A DNA stretch of 64,000 nt from Escherichia coli (GCF_030384885.1 NZ_CP128613.1), one strand, 5' to 3'. Shown: positions 50,300-57,017, counted from the first letter of the stretch. The notes: generated from the sequence alone by a model not told the origin. Translations and numbers: made by a program.

Positions 50300-52333
50300 T
50301 CACGCGTCCGGGAACATTACGCTATTACCCGGCGCTTCACGATGGAGATGGATAAAGTTTAGGTGCCGCTCGTACTGATCGAGAATATCGGTGATCACCT
50401 GCTCTTTGCTGTAGTCCATCAGGTCGTTACCCTGGCTGCCTTCTAACAGGAAGGTTTCCAGCCGGTAATAGGTCGATTTCCCGCTACGTGCGCGGTAGGT
50501 AAAGCCCGGCACCGAATATTGCTGTGGCCAAATCTGATAGACAAAGTTTTGCTCTTCACCCATATGCACCAGCAAATCCAGATGCCCTAACTGTTGTCCC
50601 TCTTCCGGCGGCAGGCTTTTTAGCTCCACGTACGCGCCGCGCAACCGCAGCTCCTGCGCCACTTCTTCCATTGCCGGGTAACAGACCGTCTCCATCATCT
50701 GTTTGGTGTAACGCGTGCCCGGATAATTCATCAGGCGCGAGAGACGTTTTTTCCAGCTCAGGCGATCCTGAAGCCCCAGCGGTCGCGGCGCGGTATCACG
50801 GTTGGCACTTTCACGGCGGTAATCTTCTACCTTCAGAGATTTATACAATCCCGCCATCACGAAGAAAATCACAAAGCTGAACGGCAGCCCCATGATTACC
50901 GTGGTGTTTTGCAGCGCGGATATCCCGTTGGTCATCAGCATGCCAAGCGTCAGCAGACCAATCGCCACCGACCAGAAGACGCGCAGCCAGCCGGGGGCGT
51001 CGCTGTTGATATCTTTAAGCTGCGAGGTGAAATTCCCCAGCACCAGCGCGCCGGAGTCCGCCGAGGTCACATAAAACAGCAGGCCAGTAATGGTGGCAAC
51101 CGAGGCGCTAAAGGTAAACGCCGGATACTGCGCCAGCAGGCTGTAGAAGCCGCGCTCCGGATGGACCATCGCTTCCTCGGCAAATGCCGCGCCGCCGTGG
51201 ATGATTTCATACAGCGCGCTATTGCCGAATACCGAGAGCCATAACAGCGTGAAGGTAAACGGAATAATCAACGTGCCCAGCACGAACTGGCGAATGGTGC
51301 GTCCACGCGAGATACGCGCCAGGAACAGGCCGACAAACGGCGACCAGGCTACCCACCATGCCCAGAAAAAGAGCGTCCAGTTATTCATCCACTCAACCGG
51401 GCGGTCAAAGGCGAAACTGTTGAGCGTCATGCCCATAAAGCGGTTAACGTAATCGCCAACGTTCAGCACCAGCGCATTAAGCAGGAACGAGGTGTCGCCC
51501 ATAAACAGCACGAACAGGATCAACCCCAGCGCCAGTGCGACATTGAGTTCAGACAATACGCGAATGCCTTTGTCGACACCGGAAGTCACCGAGATAGTCG
51601 CGATGATTACCGACAGCGCGATCAGCGCCGCTTTCGCCGCCATTGAATCCGGGATATCAAACAGTACGCTCAGGCCATAGTTAAGCTGCACCACGCCAAT
51701 GCCGAGCGTGGTGGCAATCCCGAAGATGGTGCCGATCACCGCTGCAATATCCACCGAGTGACCAATCGGCCCGTTGATCCGTTTACCGAAAATCGGATAC
51801 AGCGCCGAGCGGATCGTGAGCGGCAAATTATAACGATAGCTGAAGTATCCGAGCGCCATGCCCATCAGCGCATACATCGACCAGCCGGTTAAGCCGTAGT
51901 GAAACAGCGTCCAGACCATCGCCTGACGCGCCGCTTCCATCGTCTGCCCTGCCCCTTCCGGCGGCTGCATATACTGCGTGACCGGCTCAGCAACGGAGAA
52001 GAACATCAGATCAATACCAATCCCGGCAGCGAACAGCATCGCCGCCCAGCTCAGTAGACTGAATTCCGGTTTGGATTGTTCAGGCCCGAGCTTCACCGAA
52101 CCAAAACGCGAACAAGCGATGCAGACCACAAAGACAATATAGAGCGTTGCCGCCAGCAGATAGTACCAACCGAAGGTTTTAGAAACCCAGTCCAGCGTGC
52201 GGCCAATCCACAGGGCCGAGAAGTCGCGAAACAGGATCGTTGTCAGGGAAAACAACAAAATCAGTCCGGCGGAGGTGTAAAACACCACCGGATTGATTTT
52301 GTCCTTTTCCCTGCTGTGCGAAAGGTCTGTCAT
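50300..52333 (-). CDS. betT: choline transporter (BCCT family)
   Basis: 677 aa, MTDLSHSREKDKINPVVFYTSAGLILLFS... Confidence 0.97.
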   Translation of the reverse strand: MTDLSHSREKDKINPVVFYTSAGLILLFSLTTILFRDFSALWIGRTLDWVSKTFGWYYLLAATLYIVFVVCIACSRFGSVKLGPEQSKPEFSLLSWAAMLFAAGIGIDLMFFSVAEPVTQYMQPPEGAGQTMEAARQAMVWTLFHYGLTGWSMYALMGMALGYFSYRYNLPLTIRSALYPIFGKRINGPIGHSVDIAAVIGTIFGIATTLGIGVVQLNYGLSVLFDIPDSMAAKAALIALSVIIATISVTSGVDKGIRVLSELNVALALGLILFVLFMGDTSFLLNALVLNVGDYVNRFMGMTLNSFAFDRPVEWMNNWTLFFWAWWVAWSPFVGLFLARISRGRTIRQFVLGTLIIPFTFTLLWLSVFGNSALYEIIHGGAAFAEEAMVHPERGFYSLLAQYPAFTFSASVATITGLLFYVTSADSGALVLGNFTSQLKDINSDAPGWLRVFWSVAIGLLTLGMLMTNGISALQNTTVIMGLPFSFVIFFVMAGLYKSLKVEDYRRESANRDTAPRPLGLQDRLSWKKRLSRLMNYPGTRYTKQMMETVCYPAMEEVAQELRLRGAYVELKSLPPEEGQQLGHLDLLVHMGEEQNFVYQIWPQQYSVPGFTYRARSGKSTYYRLETFLLEGSQGNDLMDYSKEQVITDILDQYERHLNFIHLHREAPGNSVMFPDA

Positions 52334-53062: not shown

Positions 53063-54535
53063 ATGTCCCGAATGGCAGAACAGCAGCTTTATATACATGG
53101 TGGTTATACCTCCGCCACCAGCGGTCGCACCTTCGAGACCATTAACCCGGCCAACGGTAACGTGCTGGCGACCGTGCAGGCCGCCGGGCGCGAAGATGTC
53201 GATCGCGCCGTGAAGAGTGCCCAACAAGGGCAAAAAATCTGGGCGGCGATGACCGCCATGGAACGCTCGCGCATTCTGCGTCGAGCCGTTGATATTCTGC
53301 GCGAATGCAATGACGAACTCGCTAAACTGGAAACCCTCGACACCGGAAAAGCGTATTCAGAAACCTCAACCGTCGATATCGTTACCGGCGCGGACGTGCT
53401 CGAGTACTACGCCGGGCTGCTCCCGTCGCTGGAAGGCAGCCAGATCCCATTGCGTGAGACGTCATTTGTTTATACCCGCCGCGAACCGCTGGGCGTAGTG
53501 GCAGGGATTGGCGCATGGAACTACCCGATCCAGATTGCCTTGTGGAAATCCGCACCGGCGCTGGCGGCAGGCAACGCGATGATTTTCAAACCGAGCGAAG
53601 TCACCCCGCTTACCGCGTTAAAGCTGGCTGAAATCTACAGCGAAGCGGGCCTGCCGGACGGCGTATTTAACGTGTTGCCGGGCGTAGGTGCGGAAACCGG
53701 GCAGTATCTGACCGAGCATCCGGGCATCGCCAAAGTGTCGTTTACCGGCGGCGTCGCCAGCGGCAAAAAGGTGATGGCTAACGCGGCGGCCTCTTCCCTG
53801 AAAGAGGTGACCATGGAGCTGGGCGGTAAATCGCCGCTGATCGTTTTCGACGATGCAGACCTCGATCTCGCCGCCGATATCGCCATGATGGCGAACTTCT
53901 TTAGCTCCGGTCAGGTGTGTACCAATGGCACCCGCGTGTTTATTCCGGCGAAATACAAAGCCGCGTTTGAGCAGAAAATACTGGCGCGCGTTGAACGCAT
54001 TCGCGCGGGCGACGTTTTCGATCCGCAAACTAACTTCGGCCCGCTGGTCAGCTTCCCGCATCGCGATAACGTGCTGCGCTATATCGCCAAAGGCAAAGAG
54101 GAAGGTGCTCGGGTGCTCTGCGGCGGCGATGTGCTGAAGGGTGATGGCTTCGATAACGGCGCATGGGTTGCTCCGACCGTATTCACCGATTGCTGCGACG
54201 AAATGACTATCGTGCGCGAAGAGATCTTCGGCCCGGTGATGTCGCTCCTCACGTATGAGTCTGAAGACGAAGTGATTCGCCGCGCCAATGATACCGACTA
54301 CGGTCTGGCGGCGGGTATCGTCACGGCGGATCTGAACCGCGCGCATCGCGTCATTCATCAGCTGGAAGCCGGCATTTGCTGGATCAACACCTGGGGAGAA
54401 TCCCCGGCGGAGATGCCCGTTGGCGGTTACAAACACTCCGGCATTGGCCGTGAGAACGGCGTGATGACGCTCCAGAGTTATACCCAGGTGAAGTCCATCC
54501 AGGTTGAGATGGCTAAATTCCAGTCCATATTCTAA
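53063..54535 (+). CDS. betB: betaine aldehyde dehydrogenase
   Basis: 490 aa, [32 protein letters not shown]... Confidence 0.97.
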
Positions 54536-54548
54536 CCAGGAGGTTTAT

Positions 54549-56237
54549 TTGCAATTTGACTACATCATTATTGGCGCCGGCTCTGCCGGCAACGTCCTCG
54601 CGACACGTCTGACTGAAGATCCGAACACTACCGTGCTGCTGCTTGAAGCGGGCGGCCCGGACTATCGCTTTGACTTCCGTACCCAAATGCCCGCTGCGCT
54701 GGCGTTCCCGCTACAGGGTAAACGCTATAACTGGGCGTATGAGACCGAGCCGGAACCGTTTATGAACAACCGTCGCATGGAGTGCGGACGCGGTAAGGGG
54801 CTTGGTGGATCATCATTGATCAACGGCATGTGTTACATCCGTGGTAACGCGCTGGATCTCGATAACTGGGCGAAAGAACCCGGTCTGGAGAACTGGAGCT
54901 ACCTCGACTGCCTGCCCTACTACCGCAAGGCCGAGACGCGCGATGTGGGCGAGAACGACTACCACGGCGCTGATGGCCCGGTAAGCGTGACCACCTCAAA
55001 ACCGGGTGTCAATCCGCTGTTTGAAGCGATGATTGAGGCGGGCGTGCAGGCGGGCTATCCGCGCACAGAAGACCTTAACGGTTATCAGCAGGAAGGTTTC
55101 GGCCCGATGGACCGCACCGTCACGCCGCAGGGCCGTCGCGCCAGCACCGCGCGGGGTTATCTCGATCAGGCTAAATCGCGCCCGAACCTGACTATTCGAA
55201 CTCACGCCATGACCGATCACATTATCTTTGACGGCAAACGCGCGGTAGGCGTCGAGTGGCTGGAAGGCGACAGCACCATCCCAACCCGCGCAACGGCCAA
55301 CAAAGAAGTGCTGTTATGTGCAGGCGCGATTGCCTCACCACAAATCCTGCAACGCTCCGGCGTCGGCAACGCTGAACTGCTGGCCGAATTTGATATTCCG
55401 CTGGTGCATGATTTGCCCGGCGTGGGCGAAAATCTTCAGGATCATCTGGAGATGTACCTGCAATACGAGTGCAAAGAACCGGTTTCCCTCTACCCTGCCC
55501 TGCAGTGGTGGAATCAGCCGAAAATCGGTGCGGAGTGGCTGTTTGGCGGCACCGGCGTGGGTGCCAGCAACCACTTTGAAGCAGGCGGATTTATTCGCAG
55601 CCGTGAGGAATTTGCGTGGCCGAATATTCAGTACCATTTCCTGCCAGTGGCGATTAACTATAACGGCTCGAACGCAGTGAAAGAGCACGGCTTCCAGTGC
55701 CATGTCGGATCGATGCGCTCGCCAAGCCGTGGGCATGTGCGGATTAAATCCCGCGACCCGCACCAGCATCCGGCGATTTTGTTTAACTACATGTCGCACG
55801 AACAGGACTGGCAGGAGTTCCGCGACGCGATTCGCATCACCCGCGAGATCATGCATCAACCGGCGCTGGATCAATACCGTGGCCGCGAAATCAGCCCCGG
55901 CGCGGAATGCCAGACAGATGAGCAGCTCGATGAGTTCGTGCGTAATCACGCCGAAACCGCCTTCCACCCATGCGGTACGTGCAAAATGGGGTACGACGAG
56001 ATGTCCGTTGTGGATGGCGAAGGCCGCGTGCACGGGCTGGAAGGATTACGCGTAGTCGATGCGTCAATTATGCCGCAGATTATCACCGGCAATCTGAACG
56101 CCACGACCATTATGATTGGCGAGAAAATGGCGGATATAATTCGCGGACGAGAAGCGTTGTCCAGAAGTCTGGCGGCGTATTTTGTGGCGAATGGGATGCC
56201 AGTAAGAGCGAAAAAACTGAATCGCGATTTGAACTAA
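54549..56237 (+). CDS. betA: choline dehydrogenase (GMC oxidoreductase)
   Basis: 562 aa; the only start upstream of the FAD motif [11 protein letters not shown] and downstream of betB is TTG at 54549, 5 nt after AGGAGG. Confidence 0.9.
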
Positions 56238-56528
56238 CGCAGGAACTTATAAGCTTGAGAGTTACCGTTCTACGATAAGGACCGAATCCTTATATAAAAA
56301 ACATAGGTAACTCTCATGCTTCATATCCAGTATTCATGATGCTGGTTTTTTGCTGATGTTTTTACCAGAATATTCCTGATACAGACTATTAATTCAAGCT
56401 TATCTGCGACAGATTTCATTTTCTGGATATATTATGAGTGACAAATCAAACAGGATATCGATCTGATTGAAATTTTATTTTATCTGAAGAAAAAGATTCG
56501 TGTTATTCTGTTTATTATAGCTGTTTGT

Positions 56529-56944
56529 ATGACAATGGTGCTATTATTTCTGTACATCAATAAAGACAATATAAAGCTGAGTTACAGCCTAAAAATAAAC
56601 CACACAACATCAGGCATACTTGTAAGCTGTGATAGCAATAATAACTTTGCCTGTCAGACCACAATGACTGAAGATGTTATTCAGCGAATTACGAGTTTTT
56701 TAGACCAGTACTAATGCTAAAAATTGCCTTGTCAAAAAAATGGTAGATGAATACAAACAAAACTCTGGGCAGTAATAAACAGCATTCTGACAGAGAGTGC
56801 CTGTATAAAGCTGAAGTGACAATGACCGGGAAGGGAGCCCGTCTTCAGGAAAGGATTCCTGTCTTTTTCACTGTAAATATCCTGGCATTATTAATGTCAG
56901 GATATTTACAGAAGAGGAGCATAACCATGACGGAACGGGGTTAA
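56529..56944 (+). pseudogene. ykgH-position remnant: two short ORFs in different frames
   Basis: ORFs 56529-56714 (61 aa; the open frame upstream encodes a hydrophobic stretch IRVILFIIAVC) and 56747-56944 (65 aa); no intact ~220-aa ORF on either strand. Confidence 0.3.
56871..56911. repeat. perfect 14-bp inverted repeat with 13-bp spacer
   Basis: ctgtaaatatcctg-gcattattaatgt-caggatatttacag. Confidence 0.8.
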
Positions 56945-57017
56945 GTCAGGTTGTCCTTAACGCTATTCACAACCTCGTATACCGCCTTCAGGTTTATGTC
57001 CAGACTTCATATCTCTC

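What the first reader, a model, noticed from the sequence alone, without database searches (positions are those of the whole stretch)
56238..57017. ykgH locus appears degraded and carries a perfect 14-bp inverted repeat
Where ykgH (about 220 aa as I recall) should lie downstream of betA, there are only two short plus-strand ORFs in different reading frames. The first is preceded in-frame by a hydrophobic segment with no canonical start codon, which suggests frameshift or truncation of a membrane-protein gene. Inside the second ORF is a perfect palindrome ctgtaaatatcctg-N13-caggatatttacag (56871-56911). It lacks a U-tract and so is not an obvious terminator; it could be a regulator binding site or a recombination scar.
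Basis: partly seen in the sequence, partly recalled or inferred. Interest (0 to 1): 0.4.

Follow-up and report, generated by a model that had tools for sequence, protein, structure and literature searches.

The report
Dead ykgH gene beside conserved hairpin
In this E. coli strain the small membrane-protein gene ykgH is a dead remnant (a frameshift plus a roughly 324-bp deletion), which is ordinary gene decay; the palindrome is not part of that damage but a single-copy hairpin of unknown role, found in about 95% of E. coli genomes, that starts three bases after the published end of a small RNA made from the ykgH tail.

Summary
Between betA and ykgG the window holds a ykgH pseudogene. One base is lost in codon 3, giving a stop at 56464-56466. 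About 324 bp coding roughly residues 98-206 are missing. YkgH residues 4-89 and 207-222 survive in two different frames. The same allele occurs in 15 of 5,426 complete E. coli genomes, and RefSeq already marks it as a pseudogene.

The palindrome at 56871-56911 is real. It folds as a 19-bp stem with a 3-nt loop (z = -9). It is neither inside ykgH nor a scar of the decay. It lies 96 nt past the ancestral ykgH stop codon, in the convergent ykgH/ykgG spacer. It is present once per genome in 5,141 of 5,426 E. coli genomes, including K-12 with intact ykgH. It is not a REP element, not a terminator on either strand, and not protein-coding.

Published K-12 data place a strong Term-seq 3' end on the last U of the U-run (equivalent to window 56868), 3 nt before the palindrome. 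That RNA is the "ykgH 3' UTR" Hfq-associated sRNA candidate. Rho-dependent termination regions flank the spacer on both strands.

My best guess, inferred and not shown, is that the hairpin acts on read-through RNA in the convergent spacer. A neutral leftover is nearly as likely. Interest is low.

The parts
56406..56433 (+). Sigma-70-like promoter GCGACA-16-TATATT upstream of ykgH, retained in this strain.
   Evidence: The consensus scan finds it. The same hexamers are listed as the ykgH constitutive RpoD promoter, in an H-NS-bound spacer, in PMC3946193. The -10 element abuts the ATG, so the exact transcription start is uncertain.
56434..56775 (+). ykgH pseudogene, from the ancestral ATG (56434) to the ancestral stop codon TAA (56773-56775).
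   Evidence: Alignment to K-12 and to the closest intact allele, GF43, and tblastn. RefSeq marks 56445-56699 as a pseudogene in the 100%-identical strain 2013C-4282.
56434..56466 (+). Start codon, a 1-bp deletion in codon 3 (K-12 GAA becomes GA-, after 56441), and the resulting premature TGA at 56464-56466.
   Evidence: The deletion is shared by all five deletion-allele genomes aligned.
56442..56699 (+). Surviving YkgH residues 4-89 (transmembrane helix 1 and the start of the periplasmic part). The 61-aa ORF 56529-56714 is the part of this frame after an internal Met.
   Evidence: tblastn: 91% identity, E = 2e-54; ORF list.
56697..56728 (+). Junction-proximal segment about 35% diverged from every intact allele. 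It is followed by the deletion point at 56728/56729, where about 324 bp coding residues ~98-206 are missing.
   Evidence: A local alignment of this segment to intact loci scores no better than shuffles. The 53-nt stretch that contains it (56676-56728) is 100% identical in, and exclusive to, 15 genomes.
56725..56775 (+). Surviving YkgH residues 207-222 plus the stop codon, in a third frame.
   Evidence: tblastn: 94% identity.
56776..56868 (+). ykgH 3' UTR, equivalent to the published 'ykgH 3' UTR' Hfq-associated sRNA candidate. It is intact in this strain.
   Evidence: The RIL-seq candidate is described in PMC5145812 and PMC8175672, and the northern probes map to 56819-56857. The Term-seq 3' end at MG1655 324603(-) equals window 56868.
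56846..56868 (+). Terminator-like hairpin CAGGAA-AGGA-TTCCTG followed by TCTTTTT.
   Evidence: Terminator scan and fold. The K-12 Term-seq 3' end falls on the last U. In K-12 the stem is weaker.
56871..56911 (.). The palindrome: 14-nt perfect arms plus 5 inner pairs (one G.U in this strain) around the triloop ATT.
   Evidence: One locus per genome in 5,141 of 5,426 E. coli genomes. Allele series.
56747..56944 (+). 65-aa mechanical ORF (with an inner 40-aa ORF from 56822). It is not a gene.
   Evidence: Synonymous to non-synonymous changes are 6:15, like the two other frames at 7:13 and 2:18. No Pfam hit. Among the loci examined it is annotated in only one genome. The K-12 RNA 3' end cuts it in the middle.

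Best explanation
The interval holds three separate things.

(1) ykgH is an old, still-decaying pseudogene (shown). One base is lost in codon 3, about 324 bp of the periplasmic domain and transmembrane helix 2 are deleted, and a patch of scrambled sequence sits at the junction. ykgH is an AT-rich, H-NS-bound gene essentially restricted to Escherichia, and many lineages have lost it independently.

(2) The 93 nt after the ancestral stop codon are intact. In K-12 they form the abundant 3' end of an RNA that stops on the last U of CUGUCUUUUU. This is the 'ykgH 3' UTR' Hfq-associated sRNA candidate (shown in the literature for K-12; inferred for this strain).

(3) The palindrome begins 3 nt after that RNA end. 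It belongs to the E. coli-specific AT-rich islet that fills the convergent betA-ykgH / ykgEFG spacer.

Function of the palindrome (inferred). Because it is self-complementary, any transcript that reads through from either side folds the same 19-bp stem-loop. It has no U-tract after it on either strand, so it does not terminate transcription. Read-through on both strands is ended by Rho farther on. The hairpin most likely acts on those read-through RNAs, either as a block to 3' exonuclease trimming or as a double-stranded target for RNase III. Either way it would mark the boundary between the two convergent transcription units.
For: Pseudogene:
- Alignments and tblastn support it.
- Both lesions are shared by all five deletion-allele genomes aligned, and the junction sequence is found in exactly 15 of 5,426 genomes.
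- Some of these genomes carry extra lesions: ATG to ATA, and a second 1-bp deletion.
- RefSeq carries a pseudogene call for this allele.
- ykgH has decayed independently in O157:H7 and other strains, and by IS insertion.
- YkgH homologues are essentially restricted to Escherichia and include many truncated forms.
- GC content is 36% against 52-57% in the neighbouring genes.

Hairpin:
- The fold z-score is -9.1 on the plus strand and -8.0 on the minus strand.
- It is a single locus in 95% of genomes.
- Shared polymorphisms are absent from the arms (0 of 28 sites) but present in the rest of the spacer (23 of 202 sites), p = 0.04. The apical triloop takes the forms ATT, ACT, AGT and GGT.

RNA context:
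- Term-seq places a 3' end at 324603(-) in two conditions.
- Rho-termination regions lie at 324578(-), inside the palindrome (score 3.5), and at 324913(+), antisense to ykgH (score 6.7) (PMC7815308).
- RIL-seq reports the sRNA-like behaviour of the ykgH 3' UTR.
- Relatives with 83-86% identical YkgG lack ykgH and the palindrome. Three of the five such loci instead carry a GC-rich hairpin directly after the ykgG stop.
Against: - No plus-strand (ykgEFG-sense) Term-seq 3' end was reported at the hairpin in the three conditions of PMC7815308.
- The terminated ykgH 3' UTR RNA does not contain the hairpin.
- No compensatory base changes were seen. The two arm variants found are uncompensated singletons.
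- Counting all variable sites, the arms are not significantly more conserved than the flanks (2 of 28 against 34 of 202, p = 0.15).
- Northern blots failed to detect the sRNA candidate (PMC8175672).
- No sequence from other Escherichia species could be obtained to test deeper conservation.
Confidence: 0.55

Rival explanations
1. The palindrome has no function. It is a chance or historical hairpin carried in with the AT-rich ykgH islet, and it looks conserved only because E. coli is a young species.
For: Over all variable sites the arms are not significantly less variable than the flanks (p = 0.15). There is no covariation. Uncompensated arm mutations and an IS1 insertion in the left arm are tolerated. 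No transcript end has been mapped to it.
Against: A 41-nt near-perfect palindrome is very unlikely by chance (about 0.01 expected per 64 kb; z = -9). Shared polymorphisms avoid the arms (0 of 28 against 23 of 202, p = 0.04), while the loop is the most variable spot.
Confidence: 0.3
2. The palindrome is a DNA operator for a dimeric regulator, or a site that holds RNA polymerase.
For: It has perfect dyad symmetry. An in vitro RpoE-holoenzyme genomic SELEX peak lies at 323832 in old K-12 coordinates, about window 56863, in this convergent spacer (PMC5493296; coordinates checked). The K-12 centre, TTGGTAATACCA, resembles GntR/PdhR-type sites (from my own knowledge).
Against: Complementarity runs unbroken through the centre, unlike typical operators. 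The GntR-like centre is specific to the K-12 allele; other strains have ATT, ACT or AGT centres. There is no promoter to regulate at the 3' ends of two genes. SELEX-chip resolution is about 100 bp, and the only sigma-E-like motif nearby is weak.
Confidence: 0.08
3. The palindrome is a scar or relic of recombination or of a mobile element. One version is the subterminal hairpin of the element that brought ykgH in.
For: It lies near the right edge of an AT-rich, E. coli-specific islet. A second long inverted repeat lies at the left edge (56251-56321). IS1 and IS3 activity occurs at this locus.
Against: It is unrelated to the ykgH deletion, because it is present with intact ykgH. It is single-copy in every genome, and across metagenomes it is found only in this context. 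The two inverted repeats are not similar to each other. No transposase is present, and YkgH is not transposase-like.
Confidence: 0.05
4. The palindrome lies inside a real small membrane protein, the 40-65-aa ORF ending at 56944.
For: The ORF is open in all alleles and contains a hydrophobic stretch, PVFFTVNILALLM. One genome annotates it.
Against: Synonymous to non-synonymous changes are 6:15, no better than the other frames. There is no family hit. The dominant RNA 3' end in K-12 falls at codon 16 of the 40-aa ORF.
Confidence: 0.02

Closest known systems
Lineage-specific pseudogenes of dispensable, H-NS-silenced accessory genes in E. coli
   Same: A frameshift plus an internal deletion, further lesions accumulating, independent inactivations in other lineages, low GC content, and an H-NS-bound promoter region.
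   Different: The roughly 30 bp next to the deletion are scrambled and match nothing in intact alleles. The allele has recombined since it arose: the 15 genomes differ by up to 3% and carry two different 3' UTR haplotypes.
3' UTR-derived Hfq-dependent sRNAs (e.g. CpxQ, SdhX, MalH); specifically the unnamed 'ykgH 3' UTR' RIL-seq candidate
   Same: The region 56776-56868 matches the published candidate. It has a U-run 3' end mapped by Term-seq, and in RIL-seq it is mostly the second partner in chimeras, as sRNAs are.
   Different: Northern blots did not confirm it. Its terminator stem is weak in K-12. No Rfam family exists. The palindrome lies outside the terminated RNA.
Intrinsic and bidirectional terminators between convergent genes (Ju et al. 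2019, as cited in PMC8175672)
   Same: A strong hairpin in a convergent spacer that folds identically in both transcripts.
   Different: It is AT-rich with no U-tract after the stem on either strand; the U-run lies before it on the ykgH strand. Published data indicate Rho-dependent termination on both strands instead.
REP/BIME and other intergenic repeat families
   Same: An intergenic palindrome at the 3' ends of genes.
   Different: It is single-copy per genome, AT-rich, has 19-bp arms, and has no Rfam match.
3' stem-loops that stop exonucleases after Rho-dependent termination (Dar and Sorek 2018, as summarised in PMC7815308), and RNase III retroregulation hairpins such as lambda sib (from my own knowledge)
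   Same: A stable stem-loop downstream of coding regions whose transcripts are Rho-terminated farther on.
   Different: No RNA end or cleavage has been mapped at this stem, so the resemblance rests on position and structure only.
Polysaccharide co-polymerases (Wzz/Wzc/KpsE), as the nearest relatives of YkgH
   Same: The topology is transmembrane helix, periplasmic domain, transmembrane helix. Pfam gives sub-threshold Wzz (N-terminal) and GNVR (C-terminal) hits. The top Foldseek PDB hits are all Wzc or KpsE.
   Different: All scores are below threshold (18.5 against 25.5 bits; Foldseek E > 0.1) and the model is poor (pLDDT 56). The protein is far shorter than known co-polymerases.

Membership tests
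ykgH orthologue (locus identity) | Synteny betA - ykgH - ykgG, and sequence similarity to K-12 YkgH. | tested here: met
   The flanking genes are as in K-12. Residues 4-89 are 91% identical and residues 207-222 are 94% identical.
ykgH orthologue (functional gene) | An uninterrupted reading frame of about 222 aa. | tested here: not met
   There is a 1-bp deletion in codon 3, about 324 bp are missing, and the remnants lie in three frames.
REP/BIME repeat family | Many copies per genome and a GC-rich consensus stem. | tested here: not met
   One locus per genome; the two BLAST 'places' are the two strands of the same palindrome. Only the two arms match within the window. The sequence is AT-rich and has no significant Rfam match.
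Intrinsic terminator (the palindrome itself) | A stem-loop followed directly by a U-tract on the transcribed strand. | tested here: not met
   The plus strand continues GAAGAGGAGC and the minus strand continues TGAAAAAGAC. The terminator scan does not report it.
Intrinsic terminator (56846-56868) | A stem of at least 5 pairs followed by a U-run, and an RNA 3' end at the U-run. | tested here: met
   The scan finds a 6-pair stem followed by TCTTTTT. The K-12 Term-seq 3' end is on the last U (PMC7815308). This was not measured in this strain, and the K-12 stem is weaker.
Hfq-dependent 3' UTR-derived sRNA | A discrete stable transcript, Hfq binding, and base-pairing targets. | not testable with these tools
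   The literature gives RIL-seq chimeras and read accumulation, but northern blots were negative. Here only sequence integrity (56776-56868) and the U-run could be checked.
Transcription-factor operator | Conserved half-sites separated by a non-complementary spacer, located at a promoter, and bound by a protein. | tested here: inconclusive
   The half-sites are conserved, but the complementarity is continuous, the centre varies, and there is no promoter context. Protein binding cannot be tested here.
Small protein gene (65/40-aa ORF) | An excess of synonymous change in the reading frame, and a family match. | tested here: not met
   6 synonymous to 15 non-synonymous changes, against 7:13 and 2:18 in the other frames. 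No Pfam hit.
Polysaccharide co-polymerase (Wzz, PF02706) for YkgH | A Pfam score above the gathering threshold, or a significant fold match. | tested here: not met
   18.5 bits against a cut-off of 25.5. Foldseek best E = 0.16 on a model with pLDDT 56. No PDB sequence relative.

The most novel reading that the evidence does not exclude
The palindrome is a dedicated RNA processing or insulator element of the convergent ykgH / ykgEFG (lactate-utilisation) pair. One version: RNase III cuts the long stem formed in read-through RNA. In the plus-strand RNA the U-run can also pair with the GAAGAG after the palindrome. That cut would help create or destroy the Hfq-binding 3' end of the ykgH 3' UTR sRNA, so that transcription from one side controls the RNA made from the other.
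Probability: 0.07. Interest if true: 0.5.

Novelty: new member of a known kind. Interest (0 to 1): 0.17.

Why it matters
It matters little. The result corrects a mis-assignment: the palindrome is not damage to ykgH. It also links the locus to published RNA-end and RIL-seq data. A strain that has lost the ykgH protein but kept the 3' UTR intact is a natural test of whether the candidate sRNA is the selected product of this locus and whether it needs ykgH translation. The hairpin is a clean, single-copy, species-wide structure at the exact boundary of two Rho-terminated convergent units. It is cheap to test by mutation if anyone studies 3'-end formation or ykgEFG expression.

Tried and rejected
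- **REP or other repeat family:** rejected. The palindrome is a single locus per genome with no significant Rfam match.
- **Scar of the ykgH deletion:** rejected. The palindrome is present with intact ykgH.
- **Small protein in the 65/40-aa ORF:** rejected on substitution pattern.
- **GntR/PdhR-like operator (TTGGTAATACCA):** the motif is in the K-12 allele only.
- **Sigma-E promoter under the SELEX peak:** only a weak motif with an off-consensus spacing.
- **Microhomology at the deletion junction:** none found. The junction segment matches nothing in intact loci.
- **YkgH in 100,044 species genomes:** only two short contigs came back, filed under actinobacterial assemblies but 100% identical to E. 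coli K-12 YkgH, so probably contamination. No other Escherichia species could be compared.
- **Metagenome scan for the arms:** 16 contigs, all from this locus with the same three loop alleles. Two are assembly chimeras, and one of them also carries adapter sequence.
- **One distant YkgH homologue (54% identity, L017):** it lies in another context and has no palindrome.
- **Supplementary tables on Term-seq/terminators, RNase III and dsRNA:** PMC12207403, PMC6061677 and PMC6212723 had no usable data. PMC7373196 had gene-level values only.
- **YkgH structure prediction:** low confidence (pLDDT 56), so the fold matches are not significant.

Full report
**Identity of the locus.** The window is E. 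coli. The interval 56238-57017 is 100% identical to strain 2013C-4282. The genes around it are betB, betA (54504-56237, plus strand), then ykgG, ykgF and ykgE on the minus strand, as in K-12. In K-12 the betA-ykgG spacer is 1,106 bp and holds ykgH (222 aa, same strand as betA). Here it is 780 bp.

**The ykgH remnant.**
- Alignment to K-12 and to the closest intact allele (GF43, 94%) shows the ancestral ATG at 56434.
- One A is lost from codon 3 (GAA becomes GA-), so the ATG frame stops at TGA 56464-56466.
- An internal deletion removes about 324 bp.
- tblastn with K-12 YkgH recovers residues 4-89 at 56442-56699 (91% identity) and residues 207-222 at 56725-56772 (94% identity), in two further frames. 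The ancestral stop codon is at 56773-56775.
The hydrophobic stretch before it is the start of transmembrane helix 1.
- RefSeq annotates 56445-56699 as a pseudogene in the identical strain.

**Age and spread of the allele.**
- The single-piece 780-bp arrangement occurs in 15 of 5,426 complete genomes at 97-100% identity. All other genomes carry the roughly 1,100-bp form.
- All five deletion-allele genomes aligned share both lesions. Two have also lost the start codon (ATG to ATA), and one has a further 1-bp deletion.
- These genomes carry two different haplotypes of the downstream 3' UTR. So the allele is old, is still decaying, and has recombined.
- The roughly 30 bp before the deletion point (56697-56728) are about 35% diverged from every intact allele. 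They match nothing in intact loci better than shuffled sequence does. The 53-nt stretch that contains them (56676-56728) is identical in, and exclusive to, the 15 genomes. I cannot explain this patch.

**ykgH is dispensable.**
- Other lineages have inactivated it independently: an internal stop in O157:H7, frameshifts in CU42ET-1 and EBJ001, a shortened form in LR-62-2, and an IS3-family insertion in another genome.
- Alleles also vary by (Asp-Ser)n repeat length and by in-frame deletions.
- Among 5.8 billion proteins, homologues are essentially confined to Escherichia and many are truncated.
- The spacer has 36% GC, against 57% for betA and 52% for ykgG.
- The literature lists its promoter region as H-NS-bound (PMC3946193).
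- What YkgH does is unknown. Sub-threshold Pfam hits (Wzz at the N-terminus, GNVR at the C-terminus) and non-significant Foldseek hits on a poor model (all Wzc or KpsE) both hint at a miniature polysaccharide co-polymerase. This is a lead, not a finding.

**The palindrome itself.**
- The 14-nt perfect arms continue inward for five more pairs (G.U, C-G, A-U, U-A, U-A) around the triloop AUU, giving a 19-bp stem.
- Folding energy is -30.3 kcal/mol on the plus strand (z = -9.1) and -22.0 on the minus strand (z = -8.0).
- It is one of the two longest of the nine short-range inverted repeats in the window.
- It is not inside ykgH. It starts 96 nt after the ancestral stop codon.
- The 65-aa ORF that contains it starts at an out-of-frame ATG inside the ykgH tail and is equally open in K-12. 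Its substitutions are 6 synonymous to 15 non-synonymous, no better than the other two frames. It has no family match.

**Distribution of the palindrome.**
- A 59-nt query centred on it finds one locus per genome in 5,141 of 5,426 E. coli genomes. The two 'places' per genome are its own two strands. It is therefore not a REP-type repeat and not a consequence of the ykgH deletion.
- Rfam gives only chance-level microRNA-like hits.
- An exact-arm scan of 241 million metagenome records returned 16 contigs, all from this locus.
- In relatives whose YkgG is 83-86% identical, the sequence after the ykgG stop codon is unrelated. Three of the five such loci carry a GC-rich hairpin there. ykgH and the palindrome are absent from all five.
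- The palindrome therefore belongs to the E. coli-specific AT-rich islet.

**Variation in the palindrome.**
- Twelve haplotypes from complete genomes show the triloop as ATT, ACT, AGT or GGT.
- The 3' side of the inner stem is AATGT, AATGC or AATAC. This gives a perfect 19-bp stem in N96, EBJ001 and O157:H7, a G.U pair in this strain, and a C/A mismatch in K-12.
- The arms carry only two singleton, uncompensated changes.
- Shared polymorphisms are 0 of 28 in the arms against 23 of 202 elsewhere (p = 0.04). All variable sites are 2 of 28 against 34 of 202 (p = 0.15). Constraint on the arms is therefore suggestive at best, and there is no covariation.
- One genome tolerates an IS1 insertion in the left arm.

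**RNA context from the literature (K-12).**
- RIL-seq flagged the 'ykgH 3' UTR' as a putative 3' UTR-derived Hfq sRNA with a target motif (PMC5145812).
- A follow-up paper ranked it highly but could not detect it by northern blot with two probes, although RNA-seq reads accumulate there (PMC8175672). Those probes map to window 56819-56857.
- Term-seq lists a strong 'orphan' 3' end at MG1655 324603 on the minus strand in two conditions (PMC7815308, supplementary file 1). I checked that this is the last T of TGTCTTTTT, followed by CACTGTAAAT, and equals window 56868, 3 nt before the palindrome.
- The terminator scan finds a hairpin plus U-run at this spot, 56846-56868.
- The same paper's bicyclomycin data list two Rho-termination regions. 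One is at 324578(-), which falls in the palindrome loop (score 3.5, p = 4e-7). The other is at 324913(+), antisense to ykgH (score 6.7, p = 2e-23).
- So the ykgH-strand RNA mostly ends just before the palindrome, and read-through on both strands is stopped by Rho beyond it. In this strain the 324913 region lies in the deleted part of ykgH.

**Most likely working.**
- The pseudogene part is shown.
- For the palindrome, the following are shown: it is a stable, species-wide, single-copy stem-loop, it lies outside the terminated RNA, and it lacks a U-tract on either strand.
- The following is inferred: it acts on read-through transcripts from either side, as a stop for 3' exonucleases after Rho termination or as an RNase III substrate, and so marks the boundary of the two convergent units.
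- Against this, no ykgEFG-strand 3' end was reported at the stem, and conservation is only weakly above background.
- A neutral leftover hairpin is almost as likely.
- A protein operator, a mobile-element relic and a small protein are less likely, for the reasons given under the rival explanations.

**Verdict.** The gene decay is ordinary and already annotated, and the RNA end and the sRNA candidate are published. Only the hairpin's role is open. Interest is low.

Noticed in passing
window 56251-56321 (and 56327-56351): A second long inverted repeat (16-nt arms AAGCTTGAGAGTTACC / GGTAACTCTCATGCTT, 39 nt apart) lies directly after the betA stop codon. It is followed by a canonical terminator hairpin plus T6. 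The 119-nt region folds at -40.4 kcal/mol, z = -5.8, and is conserved in K-12.
   Followed up: partly
window 52244-52313: An inverted repeat with 29-nt arms (86% complementary, 12 nt apart) lies inside the 5' end of the betT coding region (betT 50300-52333, minus strand).
   Followed up: no
window ~56863 (K-12 old coordinate 323832): A published in vitro genomic SELEX peak for RpoE (sigma-E) RNA polymerase holoenzyme falls in this convergent ykgG/ykgH spacer. It is one of only 7 such 'type-C' sites (PMC5493296). The only sigma-E-like motif nearby (GGAACGG-N15-TCCTTA, 56932-56959, plus strand) is weak.
   Followed up: partly
window 56697-56728: The roughly 30 bp next to the ykgH deletion are scrambled. 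They are about 35% different from all intact alleles and match nothing in them. The 53-nt stretch containing them (56676-56728) is 100% identical across the 15 genomes that share the deletion. The origin is unexplained; filler DNA or a lost divergent allele are possibilities.
   Followed up: partly
K-12 position 324913(+), inside the part of ykgH deleted in the window: The published Rho-termination region for read-through from ykgEFG lies in the ykgH segment that this strain has deleted. Termination of ykgEFG read-through may therefore differ here.
   Followed up: no
L025 and L031 (metagenome contigs); window 56974-56995: Two metagenome contigs join the palindrome, exactly at the U-run, to unrelated transketolase DNA. 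L025 ends in the Illumina adapter sequence ATCTCGTATGCCGTCTTCTGCTTG plus poly-A, and L031 runs on into high-GC foreign DNA. Both are assembly chimeras. The E. coli spacer here (CTCGTATACCGCCTTCAGG; K-12 has CTCGTATGCCTTCTTCAGG) happens to resemble that adapter.
   Followed up: partly
L011 (strain RM9088), L036 (strain AH19D088), L019: Insertion sequences are active at this locus. IS1 sits in the left arm of the palindrome in RM9088. An IS3-family element has deleted everything from tauA to window-equivalent 56947 in AH19D088. An IS3-family element sits inside ykgH in L019.
   Followed up: partly
YkgH alleles P0004, P0007, P0008, P0009, P0013, P0016: ykgH alleles differ by expansion of an Asp-Ser repeat (DS to DSDSDSDS) after Cys66 and by in-frame internal deletions. 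This suggests slippage-prone sequence in a gene under weak selection.
   Followed up: no
L037, L040, L041 (relatives with 83-84% identical YkgG): In these relatives ykgG is followed at once by a GC-rich hairpin (CCCGCTCTGG...CCAGAGCGGG) and then by a different convergent element: a GntP permease gene in L037, and an IS1 transposase gene in L040 (L041 ends too soon to tell). E. coli lacks that hairpin, which fits its reliance on Rho to end ykgEFG transcription.
   Followed up: partly
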